A DNA stretch of 43,514 nucleotides, from NCBI GenBank assembly GCA_003344405.1, contig NOWV01000173.1, positions 124,001 to 167,514 of the forward strand. Reading direction: 5' to 3'. The stretch comes from Trichoplax sp. H2 (lineage: Eukaryota). The notes under the pieces were generated by a model that ran no database searches, had not been told where the DNA came from, and saw only the letters and a program-made list of their open reading frames with translations. Numbering within the stretch: the stretch's first letter is position 1; the number at the start of each line of letters is the position of its first letter. Both the position numbers and the translations under genes were made by a program. Shown piece by piece: positions 1 through 21,865 of this stretch.

Positions 1-709
1 GTAAATATATATACAGCACAATAGACCTCTTAAACCTTCATCAATTTATAGAAATTACACGAAATATAATTCTTCAAAAGGATTCTGTTACAATTTGGAG
101 AGAGTAAAACTCAACATTCCATTCTATCTACTGCATCTATCAGGTTATTAATGGCATTATTACCGTGATGGTTAAAATAAATATTAACTTATGGTCAGAC
201 TTTCGGTATCTTGCTGATTCAATTCTCGTATTAGCTGCAGTTCCTTTATGACTTAAAATTTGTTGCATTTTTCTTACTACATCTGGCATCCCTTTTAAAT
301 GACACAACTAGTGAAAACGATTTAAGAATAGTTATAACGTGAATTATCAAATCATACTTTAATTATGAACACCTCATTATTTTGTAATGATCAGGCATAA
401 TTTAGGGATCAGTAGCTTAAATAATCATGCTGTGTACTTACGAAGAATAATTCAAATTATTATTGCTTTGAATAAAATTTAAGCATTCGCCAACTGTTAA
501 TATCTTATTATTAATCTGTCTTTACCAGTATATAATACATACTCATGTAAGAGTATTATTAGAAACTAGAAATAAATTTCACGTGAAGTATATTAAGTCT
601 ATATTTTGATAATTTTAACAAATTTTAAACTGAAGATGGCACAGTCGTTAGAAGCACCAATATCTGACATAGCTTGAATACAATTTATGCTAAGCTTATT
701 TTAGTTAAC

Positions 710-3700
710 CTGAATAATTGCGAAATGATGATGTAACTCAGCCAAATTGGGCAAACAATCTAATTGATTGCATGCATGCCACTGAATGACCACGATAAGC
801 TGCAGATCATCAAACATATAGCACTTATATGACCATTTTGCATGATATGGCTGCTCTAAGTAGCTACAAGATATGAGTTCCAAGTTTTTTCCCTGATAAA
901 TCTATGGATAAAGAGAGCTTAGTCAAAAAAGAGAAATTTAAGCATAGAATGACAGTAGAGAATGAAATCTACAAACTACATAATTAATCATCTATCTCAT
1001 GCTCATAAAATTGCAACTGATCTAAAATTGGCTTGATGCTATACCTCTAATTTCAATTTCTTGTTCTTCTTGTCTCCATATAATTTTGTGACATGCGGAA
1101 CATCAAAAATATAGCAACAGCTAGAATCAAGTAATTCAATATTGGAACTATTTTTCATAGCCAGTCTATCGCCAACGATCACTTTGTTTTGTGGAACTAT
1201 CCAGTTCAATTTTTTGTCTAATACAGTACGATATCATACACCTTTATTCAGTTTTGAAATTCATCATAGCTTGCTCAATTAATAAAATTAAAATAAAGTA
1301 ACTTGTATGTATAATAGATTACCTTCTAAGTCATAACGAAACAGAGATTGAGTTTTAGTTTGATTAACGATAAAAAAATGATGACTTTGAGGCATAGACA
1401 TGAGATGATGCACTTCCTGTACAAAATTAATAGTTGTAAAGGAACTACAACACCTCGAAGCGATATCAAGTTTCTAACATTTGAAAAGCAAAAAAGGATC
1501 AGCACATCTGTACAACATGAAACCTACTTCACGTTCTTCCAGAAGGATTAATAAAGTAACTTCATGAAATATACTAGCAATGCTGTCAAAAGGAAGCTAT
1601 AGGCTTACTAGAATGTCGATATTATGTCCCTTATGTATAGCTAAATATTGGTAATCATCTGTTATGATCATATCATCAATTGCTTTTGCTGTACGATAAA
1701 TTGGTTGAAACACATCTTCAAATTGCTCTGTCATGTCGATGATTATAGTATCTCCGTTTTGTCCTTCGATGTCTAAAAATCCAATGACGTTGCTATAAGC
1801 CATTAATAAGACTGGAATTTCACCGTTAATATATTCCACATGATAGAGGTAAGAACTAGAATCAACATATCGAGTACATCTGTATTTGTTGTCATCGAAG
1901 CGTTGAATTAATGCAGGAACATCCCAAAGCCGATGGCAATGCCAGTTTTCCAGTTGCCAAACCTGTTAAGAAAATGATCATGATAATTTTTACACCCTTA
2001 AACTAGGCAATTTTTATTATGTATACTTTTTTACAGAGTTAGATTACTTCTATACGACATTCAGGCAGCCTTGAATTTAATTTCATCCAACTTAAAAGAC
2101 GATTAATCCAGTTACCGTCCTCATTTTTATTAAACTTTAATCGATCATAATTTCGCTGACAGACAAGAATATTGTCGCTGCTTCCGAAAAATTTACAATA
2201 TTCAATCTCGTCTTCACATGACATTGATTTATTGGTAGATTGAATTTCGTTTTCGGTAATTTTCCAGATCTATAAAATTAGAAAGTGATAAAAATTAGAA
2301 TCTAGTATAAAGAAATGAAACTCTATTAATTAATGCTCTTGTTTAATTTTAGCCTAAAGATACAGTAACCTAGAATAAATACGAAACTGCTTTTGAAGTT
2401 CTTTATAAGTATTTGACCTGCATATTCTAGGAATGTTCCCGTAGACGATATACTGACCTTAAATTATCGATTTTATACATAGTACTTAAGGTACTAATTT
2501 AAAGATTTAGCTAAATATTTGTAGGTAGTATTTGTTATTAAAATTATAGCATGCTGGAATGTAAAACAGCTTTGAATTAGATTCTAGCTATGAAAATAAC
2601 TGAGACTCTATTAGTCTAGTTCAATTCTAGCATAAAGATGCTTAACCTAGACTAAATATAAGATGCTTCTGTGGCTTTTAAAAGTATTTGACTTTGCTGT
2701 ATATGTACTAGAAATATTTTAGTAGAAATATGTAGACCATAAATTATTGATATTACAGACAGTACTTATGGTACTTAATGAAAAATATAACTATATGCAA
2801 TTATTAAAGATATCTCTTAGTAAAGTATCAGAGTTCTGTAATGAAAATGTAGGCGTTCGTGGTATATTAGCACTTACATCAGCCTCCTTCCTTCTGTTAG
2901 AAATTGTTAGCAGAAATGGGCGATTGGTAATATCAGATGAGAATTCCAGATTGGAGAAATTTGTTTTAGAGAGTTTACGGCTTTTACTGTTAACAAATCG
3001 AAGTTTTTCTTCCATAATTAGGTTATATACTATCCATTCAATGGCTGGTTTAGCCTTATAAAAATCGAAATAACGTTGTTACTAAAAATATAATTTATCC
3101 AGGAAGCTATTAATCTATCCTATTTCGTTTTTCACTATTAGTAAGTATTAAAGGTTTTATTTTCTTTGCTATTTAGATCACATATATTTGCTGTACAGAA
3201 TAAATTTCCTTAAATTAATATACGAGTACTAGAAATATACTTATTCAGTCCATAAACTTTATAAAATATTTGCTTACATTTCACTACGTAAAGCCTTATA
3301 ATAAGAATACCACATCTATAATCATTTATGAAGAACTTTAGAGAATTTACTACTTACTTTTTTACCGCCCTTGATCTCTTCAAAGGAGAAGGCCAGAAAT
3401 TTCCCATCAGAGGAAATCTTAATATCAGTAACTTGGGTATGTTGATTTTCGATCTTACAGTTAATAACTTTTCTGGATGACTCATAATTCTTAACCTGTG
3501 GTACAGCACGCTTATAGTATTAATTCAAAATAGTTTTTGTCTGGCAACGACATCTAAGAAGTGTTTTTATACCGTCGCTAACAGTTTGTTATTTTTGAAC
3601 AAAAACTTGCCTATACGTTGAAATTACGCTGAAAAACTTACAAGGACCCTCTGATTCGGTATATCTTCTTTATTACAACCAAATGCTAGTAGTAGATGTT

Positions 3701-6700
3701 CGCTACGTGAACTAGAACAACTTGGTAATAAGCTTCCAGAATGGCTTACCATGGTTCTTGACTCAATCCACGTTGGAATATTGGCACTTTGATGGCTAAA
3801 ATAGTAAATAATAAAATACAGAGTATTCGTTCATTCAGAAGAGGAATAACAGCTTAGAGATTGATTACAGTTAAAACAGAAATTTCAAAGCACAGTACTT
3901 TTACCTTGATATTTTCCAGTACGGGCCAAGACCACATTTGATATTTTTTTCAGCAATCACTAGCGCTCTTTGCATAATCCAGCTATTTGGTTTAGCGCTA
4001 ATTAATAGGAACTGCACGAAATCCATTTTATCAATATCCAAAAAAGATTCGTTTCGTAAATACAAATCCAGCAGGTGTTTCATTTTATCGCATCTCTATA
4101 GAAAAGTTATAAAGAGATTACAACTGCATCTAGGCTAACGTTAAAAAATTTAGAGGAAATATGAATTAGAGCATGCACTATTTAATTGCTTTCCATCTTC
4201 CGCGATTATGTTAGATCTGAAGTAGACTAACTTGAAGAGACTACTAATACACATCTACAGGGAACTACCCTTTTGAGTTTACCTAAGTTAAAACTTATAC
4301 CAATACTTTAGGCTAAATTAGGATAAATTTCTCAATAAAGTAGTATTACTACTCATTTCAGAGCTACAGTATTTATGCTTTTCATTATTGGTAATTACAC
4401 TAGATTAGTTCCTAAATGTGTAACCAAGCTAACTTGAAGAGACTGCCAATATATGCCCACGGAAATACCATTCCGAGTCTACGCTAGTTAAAAGTTATAC
4501 CAATAATTTCGGCTATATTGGGTTAAATTCCTCGATAAAGTAGCATTACTACCGTATATATTTATACTAATGGAATTTTGCTTTAAGATAAAATATAGTA
4601 AACCGAATTACTTTAAAAACCTCGATAACATTAATTTTATTACCTCCTCAAGCTTCTCGTTGTTTACTTTCTTCGATTCCAGATATCCAATATATTCTTG
4701 CAAATCGATTCTTAGATCATGCAAATTTTTTATCTGCCTTAGTTTCGCAGTTATCCAATTAAAATCCAATAAGATCGTTTCTATAGATTGATAGTCTTCA
4801 GCTTGAATAGCATGTTTGATAAAATTTTTATAAAAGTATATGTTGCATTGGCTAGTGTCTGGATATTTTGTATTATAAAGCCTCATATAATATCGAATCA
4901 ATAGCTGATTTAATGCCTTTCGTTTTGACCACGGCAAGTCTTGAAAATAAGTCATAGCATTTTCTTTTATAGTAAAGCAGATCCTTTCAATGCTGAAATT
5001 CAGTATTCAGAACGCAAATAATAAATATGAAGATTATACCTCTTGCTTGTTACACAAATAGTAGCCAATTCAATTTCATGAACTAGAAATATTGCCTATG
5101 TTTGAGTAATTTTCAATTTATGAAGACCATATATGCTATTCTACTTTCTTGCCAATTTAAATTAAATCCAAAGATTTTTACTCGCTGTTAATTTATTGAC
5201 GTTTCAATTCAAATTCTTTACAGCCTATTTCAAGGCTGTAATCGTTTCTTCATTTTAGTTAAGTACCAATTTTTTCTTTAAAAAATCTGCAATTATTTGC
5301 TATTATATTGACAAATATTGGTATCGTTCCTCAACGTTAAATGATCGACATAAGTATTTTTAATGTGTTTGTTTTATCAAAGTAATTTTGATTATTTATG
5401 ATTTTAATTACGAAATAAGAATGGTAAAGATAATTATTAAAGCTTCTGAAAGAGAAGTATTATCAGAAGCTACTTTTACTTTTATCGACTAATACAATAA
5501 CCACTATTTTTACAAGTAAAACTAAAAAAGTGGTTAATGAAGGGCAAATATTCGTAATTACAAGTCGGCCACAAATCTTAGGCACCAAATTTATCTAAGT
5601 ATAGATCCATTACAACGTAAATGCTTAACCCATTTTCAGCTAAAGTAATTAATCAATCATCTTAAAAGCTCTTGACCCACAATGCATATTGGCGATAATT
5701 ATTTATGCCCCTAATTTGATTTTTTATCTATTGCCATTTCGCAAAACTTAGAATCCGTGATATGAAAAGATGTTATTATGCCCGTACTCCATCTAAATAC
5801 CTTACTTACGGTACAAAGTACTGCAATTTTTATCAACAAATTAGGGTTTTAAAGACATTACGTTTTAATTTATCTATCTATTTTGGTGAGTTACTATTTG
5901 GCATATTTATTCCTCATGTCTTCACGATTCAGCGAACCATAAAAAGTAAAAATGGTCATGTTGTACTTTAAGTAAGACTGTGATATAAAATGGACACGTT
6001 CCGAATTGTTGAAGTTATATCCATATGTAAAAAAAAATACCAATTGGGATTATCTGCTTTACCGTTAAAAAATTTGAAAGTACTGGAAGTATTGTCGACT
6101 CTGCGCCTATTATTAAAAAAAATTGCGAACTGAAAAGATGTTAGAGATTCAAAAAGTATTGGAATTTCACCCTAATGTAACCGTTAGAGCATTGTCTCTT
6201 GAACTAGGTATGTTATATTTCGTAACAAGTTTGATTATTTGAATATCCGTTAGATCGCTAGACTTTCATTAATAATTCGGAATGATTGATGATAATAATT
6301 AAGGAATATTGGCAGTCATATGCTTAGCATAAGTTTGTAGTAACTATTGCAATCATATATAGATATGAAATCGATTAAGGTGTGAGAAAAATATGTTACA
6401 CTATGATCTTAAAATTTAAGTCAATCTTTTACTTCGCTATCAGATATTCCAAGACCTATCGTCCATTACATAATAAAAAACTTGAACAGCGCATCCTACA
6501 GTTTGCATATGTATTCACCATTTTCAAATGAAGAATGCGAAGCTAGAAAATCTGCAAGTGTTGATCTTTACGGATTAGCTGCTGGCGATTCTACTTTCCT
6601 AAATAATATCATCTTTTCTGGTGAAGCTATCATTTATACTTCATCCTTTATCCGTAAGCATAATTGCAGAGTTTTAGGATTATAGAAACCATCACATTAC

Positions 6701-9700
6701 AATCCATTAGTAGAGAAAACGGAAAAGTTACATGTTTGGTGTGGATTGACGAAACATGGACTTATTGGCCCATTTTATTTCTGCGGCTTAATTAATGAAG
6801 AAAACTATTTTTCTTTGTTAAAAAGTATGATGATTCCAATGCTAGGAGCTAAAGCAACTTGAAACCGGAATATTTCATCAAGACGATGCTTTGCCACATC
6901 AAGCTACTGCAATTAAAGAACTTTTAAATGATAGCTTTCCTAATAGCTAGATTGCTTTGCAGGGGCCAATTACTTGGCCAGCTAAATCACCCGATTTAAA
7001 CTCTTGTGACTTTTTCTTATGGGGATACAATCAAAACCAGACTAATTATAAAATCATATCAATCTATGAATTACCTAGAGATTTGTGTCGATGACATATG
7101 CAAAAATCTACCAAGCGAAAGATTGCAAAAGCTTTTACCAATTTTAAACAGAGGATAGGTCTATGTATACAGGTTGAAGGAGGTCCCATACAANNNNNNN
7201 NNNNNNNNNNNNNCACATCAAGCTACTGCAATTAAAGAACTTTTAAATGATAGCTTTCCTAATAGCTAGATTGGTTTGCAGAGGCCAATTACTTGGCCAG
7301 CTAAATCACCCGATTTAAACTCTTGTGACTTTTTCTTATGGGGATACAATCAAAACCAGACTGTAGTGTATTTAGAATATACTGTAACTATATTCTACTC
7401 TTAAATATAGACATTTTGTATTGCGCTTATATTTAGACAGAACTACAGTCCGCTTACTCTACATTCATATATAGCCTACTGTATTTAGTTATTACGGTAC
7501 TCGCTGTTTTCTACAATCATCTGCTATTTTGTAATCTGTTATGGTATATGTTGTATCTAATTCCACAATCCTATTCTCTGCATGTGCTCTATCTTTAAAA
7601 CTATAAATACCGGCGATTTCTACCTCAGAGTTCATTAGCCTCTCAGTTAGTCTTCTAGTTAGTCTCTCACAGTCTAATACTTCTACTCGTTACTCACGAC
7701 AGCTTGCACGCTGATCTACCGTAACTACCTCACTGTACTTCATATTACTAACCTACAATAAAGCATAACTTTTATAAACCCTTTGTTGTAATAATTGTAA
7801 ATGGCGACTAAATCTCAATCCTCTGAGATATCGAACCCTCCATCACACAGACTAACTAAATATCATATCAATCTATGAATTACCTAGAGATTTGTGTCGA
7901 TGACATATGCAAAAATCTACCAAGCGAAAGATTGCAAAAGCTTTTACCAATTTTAAACAGAGGATAGGTCTATGTATACAGGTTGAAGGAGGTCCCATAC
8001 AATATCTCTGCACTGGATGTTTATAATCTTATAAAGCTTTCTTTTTTGCAGTAGTTTAAATTTGAGCCAAATTACTGATGTAGTTATGCGCGTATATACT
8101 AATTTATTTTGTATATTCTTGGCGCACCTTATCGACTTAATGATATATAGTCATCGTATTTCTAACAGTAATGGTTAGATTACTGCTTTTGATGGATTAT
8201 GCTTATACTTGTGTTAATTAAGATATAGCATATGAAATATTACTAATGTTGTTTACTCGTAGAACAACTATAACTATTGAAAGAAATCGTAAATTGGGAG
8301 TTTTACGTCATATTTGAATAAGAAAAATAATAAATATTATCTCATTCTATGCTTGCCATTAAAATTTTTCTCACTGCTGTCTTGCTATGATAGGATTTAA
8401 TCGCGGAACTTTACCCAACACCCCTTATAAGGAACCAAAAATATTACATTCTTGAAGATTATATTTAGTACAAATGTGATTCCGGTCATCATATTATTAT
8501 TACGACACTTAAAATCTTGATAAAATTAAAAAGTCAATACTGTGACTTTATATTGAAGATCTTCGTTTAGATCAGTTAATCTTCTATTTTTTTACATATC
8601 ATAACCTTGTGCAGCTATGATTTATTATACTTTAAAGCCTGACCTTATAGAGTAACAAAGTTATAAATAATTCTATATGTTATTATTCTATATGTTATTA
8701 AAATGGCAACCTAAATTCGAGAAAATGTTTAATTAAAGTACTATATGAAGGTGCCAAATCCCTATCCTGTACTCTTTTTTTTAAGTTATCATATCATAAC
8801 CCCCTGCTTTAACTTGTAAACCGGTCAAAATATATACTCTATTTAGAGCCGTATACTTAACGGGTAGGAGGCATTGGACCTCTAACATACAATAGTACTA
8901 TATAGATTTCATACTTAAGAAGCTTAAACTTTAAAATATTAGCTTGTAATATTACAATAATATTATGAAGTAATTCGTTTTGAAATTAAGATAGCAATTT
9001 GAATTCGAGAAGACGTTTGCCTGAAGTATTGTATGAAGTAACCGAATTCCTATCTGTTACGAATTAGGAATAGCCCTAACTTGCAATAAGGATTAACGTG
9101 TTAAAGTATATAACTATACTCTGCTCTAGAGCTATATATGAACGAATACCTTACTTCAGGTAATCGTCGTGAATTAATAGTAATACATGTAATTTTAACG
9201 CAAATTTTAAAATTTCAAATAGAATTACGGTAGTATTCCGGTAATGTCTTCGTCGAGTCTGATACGAAGCCCTAGCTACGGAATATGTCTAAAGATAGCT
9301 ATCACATGCTAATTTTTGGGGTATAATTGAATATTAAATAAAGCAATTTCTACACTTCCTACACGGCAAAATTTAGACTTAATTGGTAGATTAACTTCAT
9401 TACTTAAATTAAATTTCCGTCAGGCTGTAAGTAATATAGTTCATAACCTCGGAAGATAATTTAGAATTTACATACCTATCGTCTTCATCAGATTGCAATA
9501 ATCCGTAATGGCTAAATTCTTTCAACAAAGAAACTGTATAGACCGTATCAGATTCCCATACTGTAGCGATGATGTCAACTGGTATCCGCCATAATTTAGG
9601 AAACAGTGCCAGCAAATTGAATAGCTTCTGTTTCTGTTGGTCTAATTAAATTATTAGGATGATTATGAACATACATTTATATTAACTCTAATATAAATAG

Positions 9701-12700
9701 GAATTCATTCCATCTGGAACAAAAATGCATAAAAATACAACTATCAAACTTAAGCTTCATAAATTACTGGCAACAAACTCAAATAAACTGCTTTGGGAGG
9801 TCTTTAATACAATTAGGTCTAAGTAATAGTTGTGTAAATGAGTAAAATGAAATCTATCCTAATTTAGTATATGTTCATGTTGCTGTTCTCAATAAAATTA
9901 TTCAATATCGCAGTAAAAATTGGGGAAAATGTGATCCCTGAAGGAAAGCTGTTTGGTGGAGTCTAATAAATTTCTTATTGAATAAATGCATATTGAACGA
10001 TATACTTCTAAATATAGTAATTATTTTTAGTTTAGAACATTTGATATAGCAATCATACATGATTTAAATTTAATAAAAAAGCTGTATTTGTAGAGCTTAC
10101 TTCTAAATACGGTAGAGTCTATTTTTAGTAAAAGTATTAGTTTACCCCAGACTGTAGCATAATTCTAAGACTGTAACATAACTCTAAATATGTATCATCT
10201 ATATTTAAGAATTTACTCTTTGGAAATATCTTGTACTCTAGCTAACTTATACCGTAGCACTAGCTTAATATAGAAGTAACCTATTTTCATGAATCATTCG
10301 CGCCTATAAATAATTTCCTCCTGCTGTGCTCCTAACATTATAACAGCTATTTTCTTTCGTCTATCTCGTTGTTTAGTTCTGGTAGTTGCACGGTAAGCTT
10401 GCACGCTTTATCTGTTCTACACTACTATAGTTATTCGACTAAATTACGTCGTTACTCGCACATTAGATAATGTCACACGATTATTCTCTTACACTCGCTC
10501 AATAAAGGTTATTCTTCCGTTAAGTATTCTATTATACTATTGCGACTAATGGCAAACTCTCAATCTTCCGAAACATCACAGTATTTAACGGTGTTTTGCA
10601 CTCAATTAATTAGTTAAGCATAATAATTATGGTATAATTTCCATAACATTATTCAGTAGTAAGTTTAATAGGCATACTGTACATATTGAACTTTATTTGT
10701 TCAATTTTCAAGAAATGTTTTGTCATCAGCTTGAACATGGTTATAATATTAATTAGAATAATATTATTAGGTCTATCTAAATTTTACAGCAATCCTTTGA
10801 TTTTGATACCTTAACGGCAAGAAGGTAATCAGTAAATTAATTTTTATTAATGGAAGAATATCTGTATAGCCTAGATGTTCTTCATTACTAAAAACTTTTC
10901 ATTATTATTCTTTCACTTCTTTTGGAAAAGGAAAATAAATAGCTTGTAATGGTATGCATGAATAATTCGTCAGTGTAAGTGGCGAAAAGATATCGTGTTA
11001 ATAGCTATTCTTTCTTAGAATAACATTTTGTATCAGTGTCAATAAGTCAACTTCAAATAGATGGTCATCAAACTTGATAAAATAAGAAAATTTAATACGT
11101 TAATGCAGACTGTGCAACTACCATTACACTGTTACAAAGTAGCGCAATACTCTCACATTTACATGGAATTCTATGCTTCTATATCAAGACGAAATAGTAT
11201 GAAGATAAATACTAAATTTGTTTACAAATAAAATCATAGATAGTCAAAATATTTCCTCCGTCAATGGTATTACATTTGTTTATGAGACGGTTCATAAGGA
11301 TATAGTCCAGTCTTTTTTCGATAAATTCAAAATAAAAGCTGATCGATATCTACGTCCTCAATATTTCTAAAATTTATAAATTCGTTGTAGAATTTTAAAA
11401 TTAGTTCGTAAAGTTCTAGTTTGCAAATTTTAAGAATACAGAAATCTTGAATCCGATTAGTGAAAATAAAAGATGATACAGAAAACTTTAGTACAACGTC
11501 TACACTTATCCTTTCTATCTTATTGAAATGAACAAGAGTTCCTTTTTTTTGGAGGTTATTATGATGGAGGGTTCGAAGGGTAAGATAATGTGGTTTTAGT
11601 TGCCATGCAGAGAATTGCACAAGGAGTTTAAGAAAAGAGGATACTTTATTGTAAATAGTAGTTAGGTACAATGTGATAATTACGGTAGGTCAGCGTGGTA
11701 GCTGCCGTGAGTAAAGTGTGAATACTAACTGTGACTAATAATGCAACTTAACAAATCTAAGGTAGAAAACGGCGGTATTTATAGCTATGGCACTAAAACA
11801 CATGCAGAGAACATTATTGTAGGATTAGATACAACACATACCAAAACAGGTTATAGAATAGCAGATGATTGTAGAAAATAGTGAGGACTGTAATAACTAA
11901 ATGTAGTAAGCCATATTTGAATATAGAGTGAACAGACTATAGATAAGTCTAAATATAAGATCAATACAACATGTCTAATTTAAGAATAGAATATAGTTAC
12001 AGTATACTCTAAATACACTACAGTTATAATGTATCGTCTGTTACAGTTTCAACTCTTGCATTTGCTTACTCTCTAGTTTGACGTTCATAGGCGATCGCGT
12101 TACGTAAAATATTCATTTTCCGAAATTTTGCCTTTAGAATTAATGTAGATGTATTTACCAGACACATCTTGCGTTAAATAAAATATTATTATAGGTGGTT
12201 AAAGTAGATATCAAAAGTAGCAATGCAAAACTAGCCATCTAAATTTTAAATAGCTTTTAATGGCGTAAAATTGGAACCTTTAGAATTAAAATCTTAATAC
12301 TCTGTTATAAATTCAAAAATTAAAATCTATTAGGGAGATAGAAATTTGTTTTTTGCCATAAATTCTAAACTTTGTGACACAATATACCTATGAAAAGCTA
12401 AATTAAGACTAGAGAATTTATCATTATTTAAAACAGATATTATAATGAAAAATCAAAGATGTAACATCAAATTCGACTCAAACTAGCCATAGAAATTGAA
12501 ATTTTGCAACTGAAAGATGGTGTATAAGAATTTTTAATCCAGAATCTTCTTAAATAGTAATAGTTATTCAAAGAAATTACTACATAAAGATAAACTGAAC
12601 GAGCTAGATGATATTTCTGTTCATAGCGTAGAGAAGCATATTATTCGTACCGCGTGTACAAAATATAGTGTAGTTAACTGTAGTAGCTAGCAGACTTACA

Positions 12701-14208
12701 TACAGACAAGTATATTGCATTGAGTACCGTAAAAATAAAAATTCTTTTATTCTTTCAAGGTACAAAGAATATTAGAAAGTTTGAAAATAATACATTAGAA
12801 CGGTGAAATACTTGTAGTTGATAATAGCGTATTATATGACGGTTTCTTTTCAATTATAACATGATATTGTTTTAGCCATTAGACAGAAATAATTGATTAA
12901 ATTATATCTGTTATTAGTATCGGCGGAATAGTAGTTGGTTCAGCTTGGTTCTACTGCTCAAATGGAAGAATCTAATAGCTAGAGTATGCCCGTAAAATTG
13001 AGCATCGTGATAATATATTGTAATTTGATAGTTTCTACCAAATTCGCAAACTTCTAATTGCCTATCTAAGACCAATTAAGCATCTTCATTACTTAAACGT
13101 ATTAAAATTATTAGTTTCGATGAAAGGCGATTTAGAATTTTTTGAGGAAATGATGATGATAAAGTAGATCGACTCGGAAAACTATGTCTAATACTATCAT
13201 CATACTACATGCTAGACTTTCCTCCTCGAATGTTATGAGTACGGTATCAATCAATTCTTGCGAAAGGAATTTAAAATTTAGTTTATTGTAATTTCTTTTT
13301 GTTAAAAAAACTTTAGCATATCGCTAATTTTACTTTTAGATTTTAAGTATCCATGTCAATAAAACATATATATGTTCTAGTTACAATTGGTGCCAAAACA
13401 TCGAATGTTTTAGTAAATACTTCATTAGAGTCATTTTTTACGTACTACTTTATCGATTGAGATTAAATTTGTGATTGTAATTTCAGCTTTATATATTTAT
13501 CAATATAAATAAGTACGTAAATAAATACTAACCGTTAAACAGATGGCAAGAAATGGACTCTTTTTCGGCCGATTGGTTTGCGTTATCTTCTACTAGCGAT
13601 TCTTGAGTAATTGATATTGGAAGATCACCTTAAAAGAGATTGTGTGATTACGAAATAAGTTTAGCAATGCTATAGAGCAGGATTAGAAGCTCATTATGAT
13701 TTCAACTTCTTGCGTAATTACGATAGCCGTTCGCTTCATATTAAATTCAAAATTGAACTAAGACGATCGAAAAACCAAATTTTAAGTTGCAAACATTAAG
13801 TTCTAAAATGTAACTAGGCTATTTAACTATTAATCATAAACCGAATAGATTGTCACGAGTAAATCCTATCAAAAGTTAATTTGTTAGGATATTACCACAG
13901 TTCAGTGCTTCATCGCCGTAAACATCCCTCCGCAAGTGCATTCCAAGCTTATTTGAGATTTTACTTTGATGTTGGCACAATAGATTGCAAAATAGATCAA
14001 ACTGGCCATCATCACGGCATTTTAAGAGTTTGATAAAAACAGTATTTCTTTGCTTTGAATTTTGAATCTTGCGAAGCTCGTCGATATCATTATCGGATAG
14101 TAAATGGTTTTCTTGCAAATCGCTTAATAATTCTAGTAGTTGTAAGTTGGTTACTATCTTGGTTAGGTTCCTATTGATGATATTATCGATAAATTGACTT
14201 ACTCCCAT
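710..14208 (-). CDS. Apaf-1-like multi-exon gene (CARD - linker - winged helix - HD2 - WD40-like repeats); NB-ARC nucleotide-binding core not found intact; 3' end probably extends below 710
   Basis: Hand-spliced GT-AG exons with mutually compatible phases: 14208-13896 (CARD), 13628-13533, 9641-9476 (DQQKQKLFNLLALFPKLWRIPVDIIATVWESD..LLKEFSHYGLL, Apaf-1 WHD-like), 4992-4644 (YFYKNFIKHAIQA..ILLDFNWITAKL, Apaf-1 HD2-like), 4095-3905, 3795-3642, 3495-3358 (VTDIKISSDGKFLAF, WD40-like), 3054-2878, 2269-2048, 1962-1609, 1473-1323, 1217-1045, 901-710. Similarity judged by eye from recalled Apaf-1 motifs. Confidence 0.85.
2291..2790. repeat. Diverged direct duplication (about 220 bp unit, copies about 2291-2505 and 2575-2790) in an intron
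   Basis: Collinear shared blocks: ctctatta, taacctaga.taaata, aagtatttgac, aaattat.gat.tta, agtactta.ggtact. Confidence 0.7.
4227..4552. repeat. Diverged direct duplication (about 125 bp; copies 4227-4352 and 4429-4552) in an intron
   Basis: Both copies run from ctaacttgaagagact through agttaaaa.ttataccaata to ctc.ataaagtag.attactac. Confidence 0.8.
4644..4992 (-). CDS. Apaf-1-like end of WHD plus helical domain 2 exon
   Basis: In-frame join from the 9476 donor (phase 2). Contains YFYKNFIKHAIQAEDYQSIETILLDFNWITAKLRQ, similar to Apaf-1 YWYNFLAYHMASA..LMFSLDWIKAKT. Confidence 0.85.
5990..8003 (+). mobile_element. Decayed Tc1/mariner-superfamily transposase of the DD41D (rosa/Visitor-type) group, inside an Apaf-1-like intron; 3' part assembled twice (two haplotypes)
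   Basis: Translates to KKFESTGSIVD..TVRALSLEL/DIPRPIVHYIIK (HTH), IIFSGEA (first D mutated to G), KLHVWCGL..GLIGPFYF, and IFHQDDALPH...WPAKSPDLNSCDFFLWG with 41 residues between the 2nd and 3rd catalytic Asp. Several stops and frameshifts; TIRs not located. Confidence 0.9.
7362..7847 (+). mobile_element. Solo LTR (486 bp) inserted in the transposase remnant
   Basis: TGTAG...CATCACA ends; perfect 5-bp TSD CAGAC (7357-7361, 7848-7852); TATAAATA at 7602 and AATAAA at 7757; the empty site is visible in the allelic copy near 7038-7042. Confidence 0.9.
9476..9641 (-). CDS. Apaf-1-like winged-helix exon
   Basis: AG acceptor at 9643-9642 and GTATGT donor at 9475. LALFPKLWRIPVDIIATVW..V..LLKEFSHYGLL resembles the NB-ARC WHD (Apaf-1 LSILQKDVKVPTKVLCILW..EFVNKSLL). 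Confidence 0.8.
10089..10580 (+). mobile_element. Solo LTR (492 bp)
   Basis: TGTAG...CATCACA ends; TSD GTATT (10084-10088, 10581-10585); TATAAA at 10305 and AATAAA at 10501; shares agcttgcacgct, gcgactaa and tctcaatc blocks with the 7362 element. Confidence 0.85.
11560..12022 (-). mobile_element. Solo LTR (463 bp), same family as 7362-7847, inverted
   Basis: Reverse complement starts tgtagtgtatttagagtatactgtaactatattct (near-identical to 7362) and ends gaaccctccatcata; TSD GTTAT (11555-11559, 12023-12027). Confidence 0.9.
13896..14208 (-). CDS. First coding exon of the Apaf-1-like gene: CARD (death-fold) domain
   Basis: MGVSQFIDNIINRNLTKIVTNLQLLELLSDLQENHLLSDNDIDELRKIQNSKQRNTVFIKLLKCRDDGQFDLFCNLL fits the CARD pattern (LL..L....LL...D...I.....R...L..L..R....F..F...L). 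ATG at 14208; phase-1 GT donor at 13895. Confidence 0.85.
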
Positions 14209-14320
14209 TTTTACTTTCAACAAGACATTACTCAATTAACTTTTATAGTGAAACCAGTGTTAAAATTTATGATATAGGTCAAAAGATATTCGGTATGAGA
14301 GATACGGTAGTATCTCTTTT

Positions 14321-14338
14321 AAAGTGAAAAGTGAAAAG
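14321..14338. promoter_or_regulatory. Candidate IRF-binding element (IRF-E/ISRE-like) upstream of the Apaf-1-like gene
   Basis: AAAGTGAAAAGTGAAAAG, about 115-130 bp upstream of the CARD ATG; extra half-site AGTGAAACC at 14247-14255. Confidence 0.4.
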
Positions 14339-17300
14339 ATTTTTGGACTGCTATAGAAAGAGATGATCGATGAAATTGCGAACTGTAATTGGAATCAGAC
14401 TTCTAACTCAGTATTTATCTTATTTTCTAAAATTCGATAGGATAGGACTACACAATACTTAATTAAATGAGAAAGCTAATTAATTTTATTAATGTTAATT
14501 AATAATATTTCATTCTGTCAAATTTTTTAATCATTATACTTCCTAGCGCATCTCTTACAAAATGATTACCACCTTTGCAGCTTCTATTACCTGCCATATT
14601 ATACACGATTACTTCAAATTTATTTCTTTTAATTCTAAATCCATCACGAGAACAGGCCAGACAATTTATTTTTAGCTTTTCTATGTAGAAATGAAAATTT
14701 TTTGTTTTGTTCCGGGAAGATATATGGAAGCTATTATATAATACCAAAACTTCTATTTTTAAACAATACTCAGCCATCCAGTAATTAATACAAAATCATA
14801 AATAGATTCTGTTCTATACCACTGTGTAATTTCGCTATAATTTATTAATAACACTGCAGTTTTTATGTATTTATTAATATAAAGTCTAGAATACCCGTAT
14901 ACTGTCTGTTATTTACACGATACTTCCCCTATTGAAAGGTTAAGTAGTAGTACATGTCGAAGTGTTCTTAAATTAATTGAAAAATGTCTAATCGTGGTCA
15001 CACATTTGCTTTAAAAATAAAGTTTTTATAGCCGATCAGCATTACTTTGCTTACTGTAGACTAATTAATTAAATTATTATCTGGAAGAATGCATTTGTGA
15101 AGTAATAAAGTTATCCCTTATTATATCATCATTTACAAGACAAAAATTATCAGCAAAATTTTTAAGTAGGTATTTGTAATTCCGCTATCGTTCAACTTAT
15201 ATACCATAATTAAAGAATATTAACAAATTATTAAAATTCTAAATAAACTCATCTTTAACTTCCGGTCTGATCGAAACTTGAAATTTATTGGAATGACAAC
15301 GTACTACCTTCTAGTCAATTTGGGTTGTTGTAAAAGCTTTATTCGCTACCGGTGGCTTTCAATAGCGTTAATATCAATTCTTAATTTATTAAATTGCATA
15401 AGTAAATTCGCACATTTTAATTCACCATGTTGATAGACCATATAAAAGTGTTACAGTCTCAATTTAAATTCTGTCTACATATAACTTACTACTAATTTAA
15501 AGAATAACAAGTACCATTATTTACTGAGTCGTGAGTATTAAGAACATTAGCAATTGTGCACTAACGGCATATTTGCTAATACATATGATCATTTAGCGCA
15601 AAAGTATGCAATTACTTTGCCCATTATTTCTTTATCATTTACGAAATTGTTACCATTTAAGCGGATTTAATTTATTTTCATTTCTTATTTTTAGACTTGT
15701 AATTGTAATTTGTGAACTATTATGCTTGTATCTATGAATGGATGACAATTAACTCACGAATCCTTAACGCTGCATTCGAATAATAAGTAAATCAATTTTG
15801 TTACGTGATTTACTTATATTATTATTTGCTCTTGTTTTCAATTTTCGCATAATGTAATCATATCTGCCGTAGTGCTAGTCATTCTCATTATATGGACGAT
15901 ACTTGATTAATCTCTACAGTTGGATAATATACCATTTACGCTAATGATTTTTATTTTAACTTATCAACAATTTTTTAAATATAAACATCTTTCTTCAAAT
16001 TTTTCGCTAAAGTTAAACATTACACTTAGGTAGATATGATTATACGAACTGCTATATTCTGTTAATTAAGGAACCATTATGATATTATAATGATCAACTA
16101 TAAGTCATTTCTCTCAACGATTACTTAGTTGTATCTTTCATTTGCAAGTGTTATTGCTCATTTTTAGATTTTACAGTATTTCCCTATAGTGTACGGGTTA
16201 TTTGCCCTAGGTAAGATGCCATCACTGTATTGCCTACACAAAACTAATGTAATTAGCTGAAATCACTACATTCCGATATTTAATACCATATTCTAATCTT
16301 TCAAGATATATAATTTTTAACAGCCTAATATTTCAGCAAGATTCTAGATTCACAGTTATACCATCAAGCTTTTAAAGTACTAATCAGATGTAACCTAATT
16401 CTAATTCCAGCAATTTCAAAGTAGCCATTGTTTGTTTGTATAATAATTACCCAATTTTGCTATCGTTTTAATTTCCTGAGGAAGCTTAAGCTTACACTTT
16501 TAGCTATGGCAAATGTGATCGAGGACTAACATATCTAACTGACATCTTGAAGTAATGCATATATTTGTAATTTAATATTACTAGCGTTACTATTTAAGAT
16601 GACAAAGAGAAACTATATCATAGAGATTTATGGTCAGTTTTTTGAGGCAATTTAGATATGGAATAATTTGAACCAACGCAGAACCTCACCCTGAGAGTCT
16701 ATTCCTGAACTTTTTAAGTAGTAGTGACAATTCCAATACTGCTATTAGTTTGTAATGGTTTGTATAGATTAAAGTATATTAGCGGGCTGTGGCTGATGAT
16801 GAAACGGTGAAGTAACGTAGTAGCTATTACATTGTTATTCGAGTGATTCTCACCATAAAATTTTATAATACTAGATAGTAGTGCTCGTATAATTCAGATT
16901 GAAAATATCGTTATAAAATTTGCTATAGAGATATTGAATTAAAATAACACTAATCAAATTGACCTATGATTACAGCGTCAGTTAGATCACCCTATCGATA
17001 ATAGAATAAATCACTTAAAGGGTACGTAAGCTATCAGATTGCAACACTTAGACTGCTTTTAATAAATTTCTTTTTTGAGTTTGAATTGGGTATAAAGAAC
17101 TTTAATTAATTCCGAATGGAATACTTTTAACGAATACGTGATTAAATGAACTGCTATTGTTAGAAATTTTTAATTGTAATGCAAATTCTAATATACCTAT
17201 CTAATAGCTCAAAAGCATTTAGGTAACATGTTCTAATCCTATTATCTAGCTTAAAGACTAAGCTAAAACGATAACAGTAGCTATTTCGTAGGGTGAGATA

Positions 17301-19784: not shown

Positions 19785-21865
19785 GTTTTGTGTTCTGAAT
19801 TATTTTTTAGCGTATCGGAGAAACACATATTTAATGAATAAATTAATAGTAAGAACGTAATTAAAATGGGAAATACTTCTGATTGGTTGGCAGATTATAC
19901 AATTTTATTTTTATGTCACATGTCACACAGGGCACGATTTTAGGCACTCTGATGAGTAGAACTTCCTTTATAATTACGTAAACATAATTAACTGCTAATA
20001 TTATTTTTCTAGTCAATATACAGTGGTATTTTGGTGAAATTATAGTACACTATGAAGAGTTAATGAAAGTAAAATACTGCCTCCGTATATCAACTTTTGG
20101 CCGTTTCTGTTTCATAGGAGATGATAATATCATGGGTCTGTACTTAATATCTGAATGACTCACACTTATTACTGTCTGTGCTATTAGTCAGAGTGTGCAT
20201 TTAATATTAATATTCAATTACTGTACTCAGCTTAAAGAGAGAAGTATACTGTGCATTCATATAGCGAATCTTTCGAGGCTTAGTACTGTAGAATAGCAAT
20301 TTTCTATTGCCGTAACAATTGCCATGAAGCTACCAGTCTATTACAATATACTTATGCTGAAGTTAGTACCTTATTGAAAGTGATTCAAACTTTTTGATAT
20401 GATATTTTCATAAAGTTACAGCACATATTTTCAATCATCGCACTGTACTGTATTTATACGGCATTGCTATGCTTTAAGTATAAATCAGTCAAATTAATAG
20501 ATTGAAGATTTTACTGCTATAACGAAGCTTATACTAATATACCGAACTACTGCAGAGTTTAGTGAATGTATTTGTAACATTACTTTATGAGAATAAAAGA
20601 ACAAACATTGAAATAAGTTTGTTTGATGGGAATACAGTACTTTATATCTAAAGAAATGGCCCTTTTACAGCATTTTTGTAAGGTTTACTATCAGGCACTA
20701 GATGTAGCCGATCCGTTTTTGGTACAAGTTTTACTTTGCTCTGTAGCAAATGTTTTCGTCAGGTTAATATTTTGTAACGGACATTACCCGAAACGTAATT
20801 CTATTGATGTAAGTTATCATGGCAATTCCATACGAAGAATGTGTTGTAATGAGAGAATTATTTGTGGACGCTAAATTGATTTTTAAATATTTATAAAAGG
20901 AAAATGCTGTATTGCTGTAGTATATATCATAGATGTAATGATTTTAGCTAATTAAAGTGGTTATGCGATAGGGTTACGAAAATACAAAGACAGTATAGAT
21001 TTTATTCTTCTGCATAGTGAATTTCTGTTTCTAAGTACGCAATATTGCGCTTTATGTGAAATATTTTCTATTCCTTTATTTATGCTAGTAATTAAAGCAT
21101 TTTAATAGTAGGTTATTTAAAATTAATTGTAATTCACTACCTGAACTCATCGCCTGCTGCGTATCTATTTACTCATATATTCTCCAGTGCCTTATAAAAC
21201 TGCAATTTTGAGCCGTTCGTTCCTCGGATATTAAGATTTATTAACTAGAAATATAGATACTTTGCGATACAGTTACGTATATAAGATTTAAATAAAGAAC
21301 TAGTTTACTGCATTTATCTATTGCTTTGGTATCAACTATATCCTTGTTTTCAATGTTAGTAGCAGAGTTGCAATCGTGACTACCTTACATTGAGTAATAA
21401 TATCACAATCTTCAAATATGGATCGTAAGGTCACTTTATTTAACCACAAAAATTGGTAGCAGTGCATAATTAACAATATTTCAAAAGCATTTTTTAATAT
21501 TAAACGTTACGTTCTTTAACTTGAAAGTAGCTTTAAAATCTCTTCATTACTTATTTTTATTATATATATAATAAAAATAAGAGTATTAATTGTCACATTT
21601 TTTAACTGTTGATAGCGATAAATATAAGAGTAGAGTATTCTTGAGTCAGAATTGCTACTTTTGAAAGGGTGCATCACGTCTAGAAAGAATCTTTTATATG
21701 CTTATAGTCAGTGGATTTATGGCAAATCCTTTACATACTTTAATTGCTCAAAGTAATGCTTCGTAATAAAATGCAATAAAGTATACTTAAAGAATTGCAT
21801 TATACTGTAGTTCTGTTAATATTATGTTATTCATTTAGAACTAGTGAAGCCATTGATTAAGTAAT

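What the first reader, a model, noticed from the sequence alone, without database searches (positions are those of the whole stretch)
4644..14208. Apaf-1-like gene that appears to have lost its nucleotide-binding switch (CARD-linker splices in frame straight to the winged helix)
Seen: I find no intact Walker A (GxxGxGK[ST]), Walker B or GxP motif between the linker exon and the WHD exon. The linker exon ends in phase 1 (13533) and the WHD exon starts in phase 1 (9641), so a direct splice reads in frame (..HLFN-DQQKQKLF..). The next ten exons stay open and phase-compatible. Known: Apaf-1/CED-4 need the NB-ARC NBD for ADP/dATP exchange and apoptosome assembly. Inference: a CARD-WHD-HD2-WD40 protein could act as a decoy or dominant-negative, or as a nucleotide-independent sensor/adaptor. 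Alternatively the gene is midway through decay.
Basis: partly seen in the sequence, partly recalled or inferred. Interest (0 to 1): 0.75.

Follow-up and report, generated by a model that had tools for sequence, protein, structure and literature searches.

The report
Apaf-1 relative lacking its nucleotide switch
A Trichoplax (placozoan) gene related to the cell-death trigger Apaf-1 is transcribed and spliced into a form that keeps the caspase-recruiting and sensor parts but has no nucleotide-binding engine, so it more likely tunes cell death than fires it.

Summary

RNA contigs from two runs, two studies and two organisms join 13533 directly to 9641, with GT..AG ends and no letters between. They also join 9476 to 4992. 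A DNA run does not show these joins.

Pfam finds CARD, WHD and APAF1_C but no NB-ARC. All 9 other long family members do hit NB-ARC. tblastn, a family-specific NB-ARC HMM run on all six frames, and motif scans find no NBD relic anywhere in the 43.5 kb window. The predicted fold matches Apaf-1 and Dark best.

So this is a real, expressed CARD-linker-WHD-HD2-beta-propeller paralogue from the placozoan Apaf-1 expansion. Its function is untested. The reading frame is open over 940 codons in the window, all 13 introns are canonical, family-invariant residues are kept, and dN is low (omega about 0.26-0.53, based on only 4 substitutions). These favour a maintained gene, most plausibly a decoy or regulator. 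A young decaying copy is not excluded. It is a new variant of a known kind, of moderate interest.

The parts
13896..14208 (-). Exon 1: start codon at 14208 and the CARD domain (residues 1-104 plus 1 nt).
   Evidence: Pfam CARD E 2.7e-8, 34.1 bits, above the cut-off of 23.9. An in-frame stop lies upstream of the ATG. An RNA contig of X20 covers 14015-14302. The joint to exon 2 is seen in X16.
13533..13628 (-). Exon 2: 96-nt linker exon (DLPISIT...CHLFN) that ends in phase 1.
   Evidence: Exact match to P0034 residues 105-136. Joint 13626/13894 (equivalent to 13628/13896) in X16. X20 record 17 holds the whole exon. AF2 confidence is low here (pLDDT <50 over residues 51-134). No NB-ARC homology: the real segment got no reported score, while 644 of 1000 shuffles did.
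9642..13532 (-). Intron 2, 3891 nt, GT..AG. This is where NBD/HD1 exons would be expected. It holds no recognisable NB-ARC coding sequence and carries high-copy repeats.
   Evidence: Searches are all negative. Depth in DNA run X8 is 847 at 10081-10560 and 1952 at 11521-12000, against about 34 for single-copy sequence. There is no N run in the interval.
9476..9641 (-). Exon 3: winged-helix domain (WHD), which starts in phase 1.
   Evidence: Pfam Dark_WHD E 3.1e-6, 27.9 bits against a cut-off of 27. RNA contigs X16 record 1 and X20 record 17 cover it and join it on both sides.
4993..9475 (-). Intron 3, 4483 nt, GT..AG. It holds a 20-N assembly gap (7194-7213) with duplicated flanks and a high-copy repeat.
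   Evidence: Joint 4992/9476 in X16 and X20; depth 1949-4388 at 7201-8160 in X8.
4644..4992 (-). Exon 4: end of the WHD and first part of HD2 (APAF-1 helical domain).
   Evidence: Pfam APAF1_C E 3.8e-9. X20 record 17 covers 4644-4992.
164..4095 (-). Exons 5-14: 4095-3905, 3795-3642, 3495-3358, 3054-2878, 2269-2048, 1962-1609, 1473-1323 (the public model uses 1416), 1217-1045, 901-710 (not in the H2 model) and 307-164. They encode the rest of HD2 and the beta-propeller region. The gene then runs off the left end of the window (P0034 residues 858-1127 lie outside).
   Evidence: Exon map reproduces P0034 1-857 at 100%. The RNA-supported version has 940 codons without a stop, and all introns are GT..AG. 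X20 joints: 307/710, 901/1045, 1217/1323, 1473/1609, 1960/2046. The region is beta-rich in the AF2 model. After Apaf-1 and Dark, Foldseek hits are WD40 tandem propellers.

Best explanation
This is a genuine, transcribed member of the placozoan-specific Apaf-1 expansion that has lost the whole NB-ARC nucleotide-binding domain and HD1. It encodes CARD, a roughly 32-residue flexible linker, WHD, HD2 and tandem beta-propellers.

Shown: the anatomy, the splicing, and the absence of any NBD coding sequence at the locus.

Inferred: without the P-loop NBD and HD1 it cannot bind or exchange ADP/(d)ATP. It also cannot build the NBD-HD1-WHD hub of an apoptosome ring (established Apaf-1/CED-4/Dark structural biology). 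It most likely does not fire by itself. Instead it would act as a nucleotide-independent regulator: a decoy that offers a CARD to the CARD-caspases or to the CARDs of full-length paralogues, and perhaps a ligand-binding propeller. That would set a threshold for, or dampen, death signalling by the 12 or more full-length paralogues.
For: Anatomy and expression
- The public H2 model contains the junction.
- RNA contigs X16 record 1 (312 nt: 4877-4992, 9476-9641, then 30 nt at 13533 onward) and X20 record 17 (742 nt: 4644-4992, then joined across exon 3 to 96 nt of exon 2 by its length and joint sides) join the exons with no spare letters. They come from two studies and two organisms.
- The joints are absent from DNA run X8.
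- The CARD-to-linker joint is seen in X16.

No NBD
- Searches are negative for this gene.
- 9 of 9 other long family members hit NB-ARC (E 2.1e-22 to 6.7e-5; P0016, at 22.7 bits, falls just under the 23.5 cut-off).

Fold
- Best PDB matches are human Apaf-1 (3j2t_A, E 7.3e-21), murine Apaf-1 and Dark (8y6p, E 3.3e-14).

Signs of maintenance
- 940 codons without a stop in a 30% GC genome, where 5.4% of possible substitutions make a stop; 13 of 13 introns are GT..AG.
- The two organisms differ by 4 amino acids in 910 aligned residues.
- Rough omega is 0.26-0.53. P(<=4 nonsynonymous) ranges from 0.0007 to 0.12, depending on which non-coding divergence is taken as neutral.
- It keeps 5/5 WHD, 17/23 HD2 and 27/46 propeller columns that are invariant in the paralogues. 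The NBD-bearing paralogue P0038 is similar at 5/8, 17/21 and 27/44.
- Its end branch (1.63) equals that of P0038 (1.60).

Local erosion where expected
- In the WHD motif that reads HDLxxDYL in 5 of 6 paralogues, this protein has KENAMTYF. By my recollection of the Apaf-1 structure, that His contacts the ADP beta-phosphate. The pattern fits long disuse of nucleotide sensing while the rest was kept.

Precedent
- Plant NLRs with truncated or absent NB-ARC (Pb1, NRG1.3/NRG1C, RXL) are experimentally validated immune components (passages of PMC8559963, passage of PMC11933841).
Against: - No protein-level evidence and no binding or activity data exist.
- The only second organism available is about 0.5-1% divergent, so the open frame and low dN could simply reflect a recent loss. 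The selection estimate rests on 4 nonsynonymous and at least 2 synonymous differences. With the most conservative neutral rate it is not significant (P=0.12).
- No indel was seen in about 2.65 kb of coding DNA, against 6 in about 7.5 kb of non-coding DNA. That is also weak (about 2 expected).
- No orthologue from a more distant placozoan was found, so the age of the loss is unknown.
- Propeller conservation (27/46) is lower than in three paralogues (27/30 to 27/31).
- Contig-level RNA data cannot give expression level or exclude rare isoforms.
Confidence: 0.45

Rival explanations
1. A young unitary pseudogene in early decay. A deletion, or decay plus exon skipping, removed the NBD exons shortly before the split of the two Trichoplax lineages. 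The remnant is still transcribed and spliced in frame by luck (1 in 3) but does nothing.
For: - Large, repeat-filled introns of 3891 and 4483 nt flank the WHD exon, while the other 11 introns are 85-608 nt. This suggests a disturbed locus.
- Birth-and-death turnover is expected in an expanded family of 39 NB-ARC genes (passages of PMC6321704).
- The selection test is non-significant under the most conservative neutral rate (P=0.12).
- Propeller conservation is lower than in three paralogues.
- No distant orthologue was found.
Against: - No stop or frameshift in 940 codons in the window, nor in the 1127-residue H2 and 974-residue H1 models.
- dN is below non-coding divergence under two of the three neutral rates.
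- The HDLxxDYL motif is already replaced at 4 conserved positions while 5/5 other invariant WHD columns are intact. This argues that nucleotide sensing was lost long ago while the rest stayed open.
- Its end branch is no longer than that of an NBD-bearing paralogue.
Confidence: 0.3
2. An autonomous nucleotide-independent sensor or adaptor. Ligand binding to the propellers frees the tethered CARD, which then nucleates CARD-caspase activation without any NTPase switch. This would be functionally comparable to CARD8 relative to NLRP1 (recalled).
For: The protein retains both the effector CARD and the complete sensor half: HD2 plus propellers. This includes two coding segments that the public model missed but RNA supports. 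The linker is predicted to be flexible.
Against: No known Apaf-1, CED-4 or Dark protein activates caspases without the NBD-HD1 oligomerisation hub (established knowledge). Nothing here shows self-association or autoinhibition of the CARD. The AF2 model is too poor (pTM 0.39, CARD pLDDT <50) to read domain packing.
Confidence: 0.12
3. An assembly or annotation artefact: the NBD exons exist but were dropped from the assembly or missed.
For: The window has three 20-N gaps, one inside this gene (7194-7213) with duplicated flanks. The H2 model does miss two RNA-supported coding segments.
Against: The RNA contigs are independent of the assembly and join linker to WHD to HD2 with no extra letters, in two organisms. 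The gap lies in intron 3, downstream of the WHD, which is the wrong place for an NBD. The interval 9642-13532 has no N.
Confidence: 0.02

Closest known systems
Full-length Trichoplax Apaf-1 paralogues (e.g. RDD41632.1 = P0037, RDD46820.1 = P0020, RDD41290.1 = P0038, XP_002117913.1 = P0010)
   Same: They share the CARD (or a Death domain in some), WHD, HD2 (APAF1_C) and the same divergent beta-propeller region. The alignment is collinear, with 23-31% identity overall and 34-44% in the HD2 exon.
   Different: All of them carry an NB-ARC with the P-loop HGMAGSGKT, Walker B LFIFDD and the GLPLAI motif. This gene has none of these and has KE in place of the WHD HD motif.
Human/murine Apaf-1 and Drosophila Dark (PDB 3j2t, 5juy, 3sfz, 8y6p)
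   Same: They are the best structural matches (E 7.3e-21 to 3.3e-14) and share the CARD, WHD and HD2 Pfam families.
   Different: There is no NBD or HD1, so no nucleotide switch. Sequence identity is 11-13%. Pfam WD40 is not detected.
Plant NLRs with truncated or missing NB-ARC that still work with or against full-length partners (RXL with Pm5e; NRG1C/AtNRG1.3; Pb1)
   Same: They are STAND-family paralogues that lost most or all of the NB-ARC and are nevertheless validated immune components. NRG1C is reported to antagonise its full-length neighbours. Sources: a passage and a reference title in PMC8559963, the listing and one passage of PMC11933841.
   Different: They belong to a different kingdom, with different N-terminal and C-terminal domains (CC/RPW8 and LRR). 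This is an analogy in logic, not homology beyond the STAND superfamily. No functional data exist for the placozoan gene.
Inhibitory isoforms and CARD-only decoys of the death machinery (CED-4L, short Apaf-1 isoforms, ICEBERG/COP-type CARD-only proteins, CARD8 versus NLRP1). These are recalled, not looked up here.
   Same: The idea is the same: a variant that keeps the CARD but cannot complete the ATPase-driven assembly, and so modulates caspase activation.
   Different: Those are splice isoforms with an altered but present NBD, or tiny CARD-only proteins. This is a separate gene that keeps the whole sensor half (WHD-HD2-propellers) and lacks only the NBD-HD1 module.

Membership tests
Apaf-1/CED-4/Dark (NB-ARC STAND ATPases) | N-terminal CARD | tested here: met
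   PF00619 E 2.7e-8, 34.1 bits, above the cut-off of 23.9 on exon 1; E 1.9e-6 on the whole protein.
Apaf-1/CED-4/Dark (NB-ARC STAND ATPases) | NB-ARC nucleotide-binding domain with Walker A, Walker B and the HD1 GxP/GLPL motif | tested here: not met
   No PF00931 hit on P0034 at E<=0.1, whereas 9 of 9 other long family members hit it. No motif or relic in any frame of the window.
Apaf-1/CED-4/Dark (NB-ARC STAND ATPases) | Winged-helix domain with the nucleotide-sensing His (LHD/MHD-type motif; the role of the His is recalled) | tested here: inconclusive
   The WHD fold family is detected (Dark_WHD 27.9 bits on the exon against a cut-off of 27; 23.5 bits on the whole protein). The HD of the motif is KE here, against HD in 5 of 6 paralogues.
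Apaf-1/CED-4/Dark (NB-ARC STAND ATPases) | HD2 (APAF-1 helical domain) | tested here: met
   PF17908 E 4.7e-10, 39.9 bits, above the cut-off of 22.8. The 12 invariant or nearly invariant columns of the 32-sequence alignment carry the consensus residue here.
Apaf-1/CED-4/Dark (NB-ARC STAND ATPases) | C-terminal WD40 beta-propellers | tested here: inconclusive
   Pfam WD40 is not significant. The AF2 model is beta-rich with moderate pLDDT. Foldseek aligns the whole model to Apaf-1 and then to tandem WD40 propellers at E about 1e-10. Blade number was not determined.
Apaf-1/CED-4/Dark (NB-ARC STAND ATPases) | Nucleotide-dependent oligomerisation into an apoptosome that activates a CARD-caspase | not testable with these tools
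   This needs biochemistry. It is expected to fail for lack of the NBD and HD1 (inference).
CARD decoys / dominant-negative regulators | The CARD binds a CARD partner but the protein lacks the module needed to activate it | not tested
   A CARD is present and the activation module is absent. Binding was not tested.

The most novel reading that the evidence does not exclude
Placozoans maintain a dedicated Apaf-1 paralogue that has discarded the STAND ATPase module yet keeps the CARD and the complete sensor half. It would work as an endogenous, nucleotide-independent brake or threshold-setter, or possibly a ligand-released CARD adaptor, for their unusually large set of full-length Apaf-1 proteins. 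That would be an animal counterpart of plant NB-ARC-less NLR partners such as RXL and NRG1C.
Probability: 0.4. Interest if true: 0.65.

Novelty: new variant of a known kind. Interest (0 to 1): 0.48.

Why it matters
Surveys of Apaf-1 and NLR evolution pick their genes by the NB-ARC/NACHT domain. This is stated in passages of PMC6321704 and of 10.1101/2021.12.21.473695. A member without that domain is therefore invisible to them.

This gene shows that the placozoan Apaf-1 expansion also contains an expressed, NBD-less member. If it is maintained, it gives a natural separation-of-function allele: CARD plus sensor without the switch. That would help to study how multi-paralogue death or immune networks are tuned in an early-branching animal. 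It would also extend to animals the theme, known from plants, that truncated STAND paralogues regulate full-length ones. If it is merely decaying, it is an ordinary by-product of gene-family turnover.

Tried and rejected
- Whole-genome search: no genome is held for this window.
I used single ORFs, tblastn and my own HMM instead.
- Relics picked by eye at 13132-13323 and 12914-13075 (a P-loop-like and a Walker-B-like string) got no Pfam hit at E<=10 and no HMM support. Part of the second lies in a 1199-nt stretch that is absent from the other organism's DNA. I reject them as chance.
- A lone GKS tripeptide at 13214-13222 is at chance level.
- tblastn HSPs inside the interval all had E of 1.3 or more. 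They fall at 10237-10392 (a high-copy repeat), 9917-10039 and 13526-13576, the last overlapping exon 2. I treat them as noise.
- MAFFT twice placed the linker exon under the GLPL motif of HD1. The HMM test against 1000 shuffles gave the real segment no score at all. This placement is rejected.
- Orthologues in other placozoans: three word-based searches found only the gene's own cluster. The exhaustive search returned paralogues at 29-44% identity only. This says nothing about absence, because other placozoan proteomes may not be in the libraries.
- ESM Atlas: best score 0.89, below the level at which a hit counts as more than a lead.
- Earlier scan notes: none found.
- DNA run X8 shows no cover at 9121-10080. 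A hole proves nothing.
- Mariner-like ORFs in intron 3 (recognised by eye) got no Pfam hit at E<=0.01.
- Complex prediction was not used. CARD-CARD pairs tend to pass by likeness, and no caspase partner had been fetched.

Full report
WHAT THE WINDOW IS

The window is AT-rich (GC 0.28-0.335) and eukaryotic. No whole genome is held for it.

The HD2 exon is 100% identical to Trichoplax adhaerens XP_002116902.1 / TRIADDRAFT_60918 (P0033, 974 aa). That protein's 90% cluster also holds Trichoplax sp. H2 RDD38516.1 / TrispH2_009070 (P0034, 1127 aa, 'hypothetical protein'). The window reproduces residues 1-857 of P0034 exactly through 13 exons, and the remainder lies beyond the window's left end. At the four residues where the two public proteins differ, the window carries the H2 state. 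So the window comes from Trichoplax sp. H2 or something indistinguishable from it.

THE OBSERVATION

The gene lies on the minus strand.

| Exon | Coordinates | Content |
|---|---|---|
| 1 | 14208-13896 | CARD |
| 2 | 13628-13533 | linker |
| 3 | 9641-9476 | WHD |
| 4 | 4992-4644 | end of WHD, start of HD2 |

- Pfam on the single exons gives CARD E 2.7e-8, Dark_WHD E 3.1e-6 and APAF1_C E 3.8e-9.
- The four exons joined in a script give 924 nt in frame and equal P0034 residues 1-308.
- The public H2 model already contains the exact junction ...CHLFN|DQQKQKLF....
- Ten more exons follow in the window. All 13 introns are GT..AG. Their sizes are 267, 3891, 4483, 548, 109, 146, 303, 608, 85, 135, 105, 143 and 402 nt.

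IS THE NBD REALLY ABSENT?

- Whole-protein Pfam finds no NB-ARC in P0034. It does find NB-ARC in 9 of 9 other long family members:
  - P0037 E 2e-16, P0038 1.6e-11, P0020 2.1e-22, P0010 3.8e-14.
  - P0016 6.7e-5 (22.7 bits, just under the 23.5 cut-off), P0023 2e-10, P0030 5e-6, P0007 7.8e-14, P0013 1.7e-11.
- tblastn of 7 paralogues against the window hits the CARD, WHD and HD2 exons and the downstream exons collinearly. It gives no HSP with E<1 in 9642-13532.
- I built a 281-node HMM of the missing region from 5 paralogues. I searched it, with all filters off, against all 3501 six-frame ORFs of 8 aa or more in the window. The best hit was E=0.1 at 21244-21384, outside the gene. Inside the interval nothing scored better than E=14.
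- No Walker A, relaxed Walker A, family Walker B or GLPL string exists in any frame of the window.
- Two alignments placed the linker exon under the HD1 GLPL motif. Against the HMM, however, the real segment got no reported score while 644 of 1000 shuffles did. That placement is an alignment artefact.
- Strings I had picked by eye as relics are unsupported.

I laid four coded runs on window 1-14400.

- The joint 9641/13533 skips 3891 nt, with CT..AC on the plus strand, which is GT..AG for the gene. It is present in one contig of X16 (RNA, organism A) and one of X20 (organism B). These come from different studies.
- The joint is absent from DNA run X8.
- The record coordinates leave no room for extra letters:
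  - X16 record 1 (312 nt) is 4877-4992, then 9476-9641, then 30 nt at 13533 onward.
  - X20 record 17 (742 nt) covers 4644-4992 at record positions 132-480. Its remaining 262 letters equal the 166 nt of exon 3 plus the 96 nt of exon 2 given as the two joint sides.
- The same contigs carry the 4992/9476 joint.
- X16 also shows the CARD-linker joint (13626/13894, equivalent to 13628/13896).
- X20 record 16 (2069 nt) shows five downstream joints.
- X20 behaves as RNA, because its joints are canonical and absent from the DNA run.
- Organism B carries D at residue 660 (1791 T>C). This is the T. adhaerens state.

So the NBD-less mRNA exists in both Trichoplax lineages.

Two limits apply. Contigs cannot give expression level or exclude rare isoforms. 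Other RNA contigs inside intron 2 are unspliced pieces (X16 records 5-7, X19 records 13-14), and no other joint from 13533 or into 9641 is among the 15 rows shown (7 rows were not shown).

Mis-assembly is excluded as an explanation. The RNA is independent of the assembly, intron 2 has no N, and the one gap inside the gene (7194-7213, with duplicated flanks) lies in intron 3.

WHAT THE PROTEIN LOOKS LIKE

- AF2 on a 32-row alignment gave mean pLDDT 61.7 and pTM 0.39.
- Confidence is good in the WHD-HD2 region (about residues 140-360) and moderate in a beta-rich region from about residue 390. The CARD and linker are poor.
- Foldseek's best PDB matches are human Apaf-1 (3j2t_A E 7.3e-21; 5juy), murine Apaf-1 (3shf, 3sfz) and Dark (8y6p, E 3.3e-14). 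Tandem WD40 propellers follow at about 1e-10.
- RNA supports two coding segments that the H2 model omits: exon 901-710, and a 57-nt longer exon 11 that starts at 1473. Both fill gaps relative to the paralogues. With them the window holds 940 open codons.

FAMILY CONTEXT

- An exhaustive search with the HD2 exon found 29 relatives at 29-44% identity. Several are named Apoptotic protease-activating factor 1.
- Passages of Kamm et al. 2019 (PMC6321704) report 39 NB-ARC genes and at least twelve Apaf-1 homologues in H2. The genes were chosen by the NB-ARC/NACHT InterPro domains. The same passages report two CARD-caspase-like genes.
- A metazoan Apaf-1 phylogeny also used the NB-ARC domain only (passages of 10.1101/2021.12.21.473695).
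- An NBD-less member would escape both studies.
- A full-text search for five identifiers of this gene found 0 papers. The supplement of PMC6321704 could not be read.

IS IT MAINTAINED OR DECAYING?

For maintenance:
- The frame is open and the splicing canonical in both lineages.
- There are 4 amino-acid differences in 910 aligned residues.
- Within the window, 653 shared codons hold 1577 nonsynonymous sites. That gives 7.6, 12.1 or 15.2 expected changes under neutral rates of 0.48%, 0.76% or 0.97%, which I took from the X8 contigs. Four were observed. P is 0.12, 0.007 or 0.0007, and omega is 0.53, 0.33 or 0.26.
- The differences at 3964 and 845 are synonymous.
- It keeps columns that are invariant in the paralogues about as well as the NBD-bearing P0038 does. 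Its end branch is no longer than P0038's.
- In 5 of 6 paralogues the WHD motif is HDLxxDYL, and here it is KENAMTYF. By recollection, that His senses ADP in Apaf-1. Erosion concentrated at this one motif, while the other WHD invariants are 5/5 intact, suggests nucleotide sensing was lost long ago and the rest was kept.

Against maintenance:
- Every count is small.
- The two lineages are only about 0.5-1% apart.
- The indel test is weak: 0 observed against about 2 expected.
- Propeller conservation (27/46) is below that of three paralogues.
- No distant orthologue could be found.

MECHANISM

Shown: CARD plus sensor half, with no NBD or HD1.

From established Apaf-1, CED-4 and Dark biology, such a protein cannot bind or exchange nucleotide or form the ring hub.

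Inference: it acts through its CARD, and perhaps through ligand binding by its propellers, as a decoy or threshold-setter for the full-length paralogues and the CARD-caspases. I put this at about 0.45. The rivals are a young transcribed pseudogene (about 0.3), an autonomous nucleotide-independent adaptor (about 0.12) and an artefact (about 0.02).

Plant NLRs with truncated or absent NB-ARC that are functional (Pb1, NRG1.3/NRG1C, RXL) give a precedent for the logic. The sources are passages of PMC8559963, and the listing and one passage of PMC11933841.

VERDICT

This is a new variant (NBD-less) of a known kind (the Apaf-1 family). It is already present as an unremarked 'hypothetical protein' model, and interest is moderate.

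Noticed in passing
window 710-901 and 1417-1473 (minus strand): The public H2 gene model omits two in-frame coding segments that an RNA contig (X20 record 16) includes: a 192-nt exon and a 57-nt 5' extension of exon 11. Both align to segments present in the paralogues. The T. adhaerens model has the 192-nt exon. The true protein is therefore longer than 1127 aa.
   Followed up: partly
window 11836-13034 (intron 2): A DNA contig of the other Trichoplax organism (X8 record 27) joins 11835 to 13035 with 15 other letters between. Depth there is 3-4 against about 34 for single-copy sequence. So this is a 1.2-kb insertion/deletion difference between the two lineages inside the large intron.
   Followed up: no
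window 7408-7632 and 11753-11977: Inverted copies (225 nt, 81% complementary) of a high-copy repeat sit in introns 3 and 2. Contig depth there is about 1950-4390 against about 34 for single-copy DNA, and the repeat is also abundant in the RNA runs. A further repeat lies at about 10130-10555.
   Followed up: partly
window 6895-8002, around the N run 7194-7213: The 20-N gap is flanked by near-identical duplicated blocks (6895-7043 = 7214-7362; 7050-7193 = 7859-8002, both 99%). This looks like a scaffolding artefact inside intron 3. It does not touch any exon.
   Followed up: no
window 25435-26871 (minus strand): A neighbouring gene has a Kringle domain (E 3.1e-21) and SRCR domains (E 4.7e-11 and 2e-4). 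It belongs to the scavenger-receptor-type repertoire said to be expanded in placozoans (abstract of PMC6321704).
   Followed up: no
protein P0016 (XP_002116458.1, TRIADDRAFT_60393), not in the window: This paralogue has the highest identity to this gene (33% over 317 columns). It also lacks the HD of the WHD motif (TE instead). Its NB-ARC score is just under Pfam's cut-off (22.7 against 23.5 bits), and its model reads GSGN where the others have GSGKT. It may be a second member with a weakened switch, or simply a faulty gene model.
   Followed up: partly
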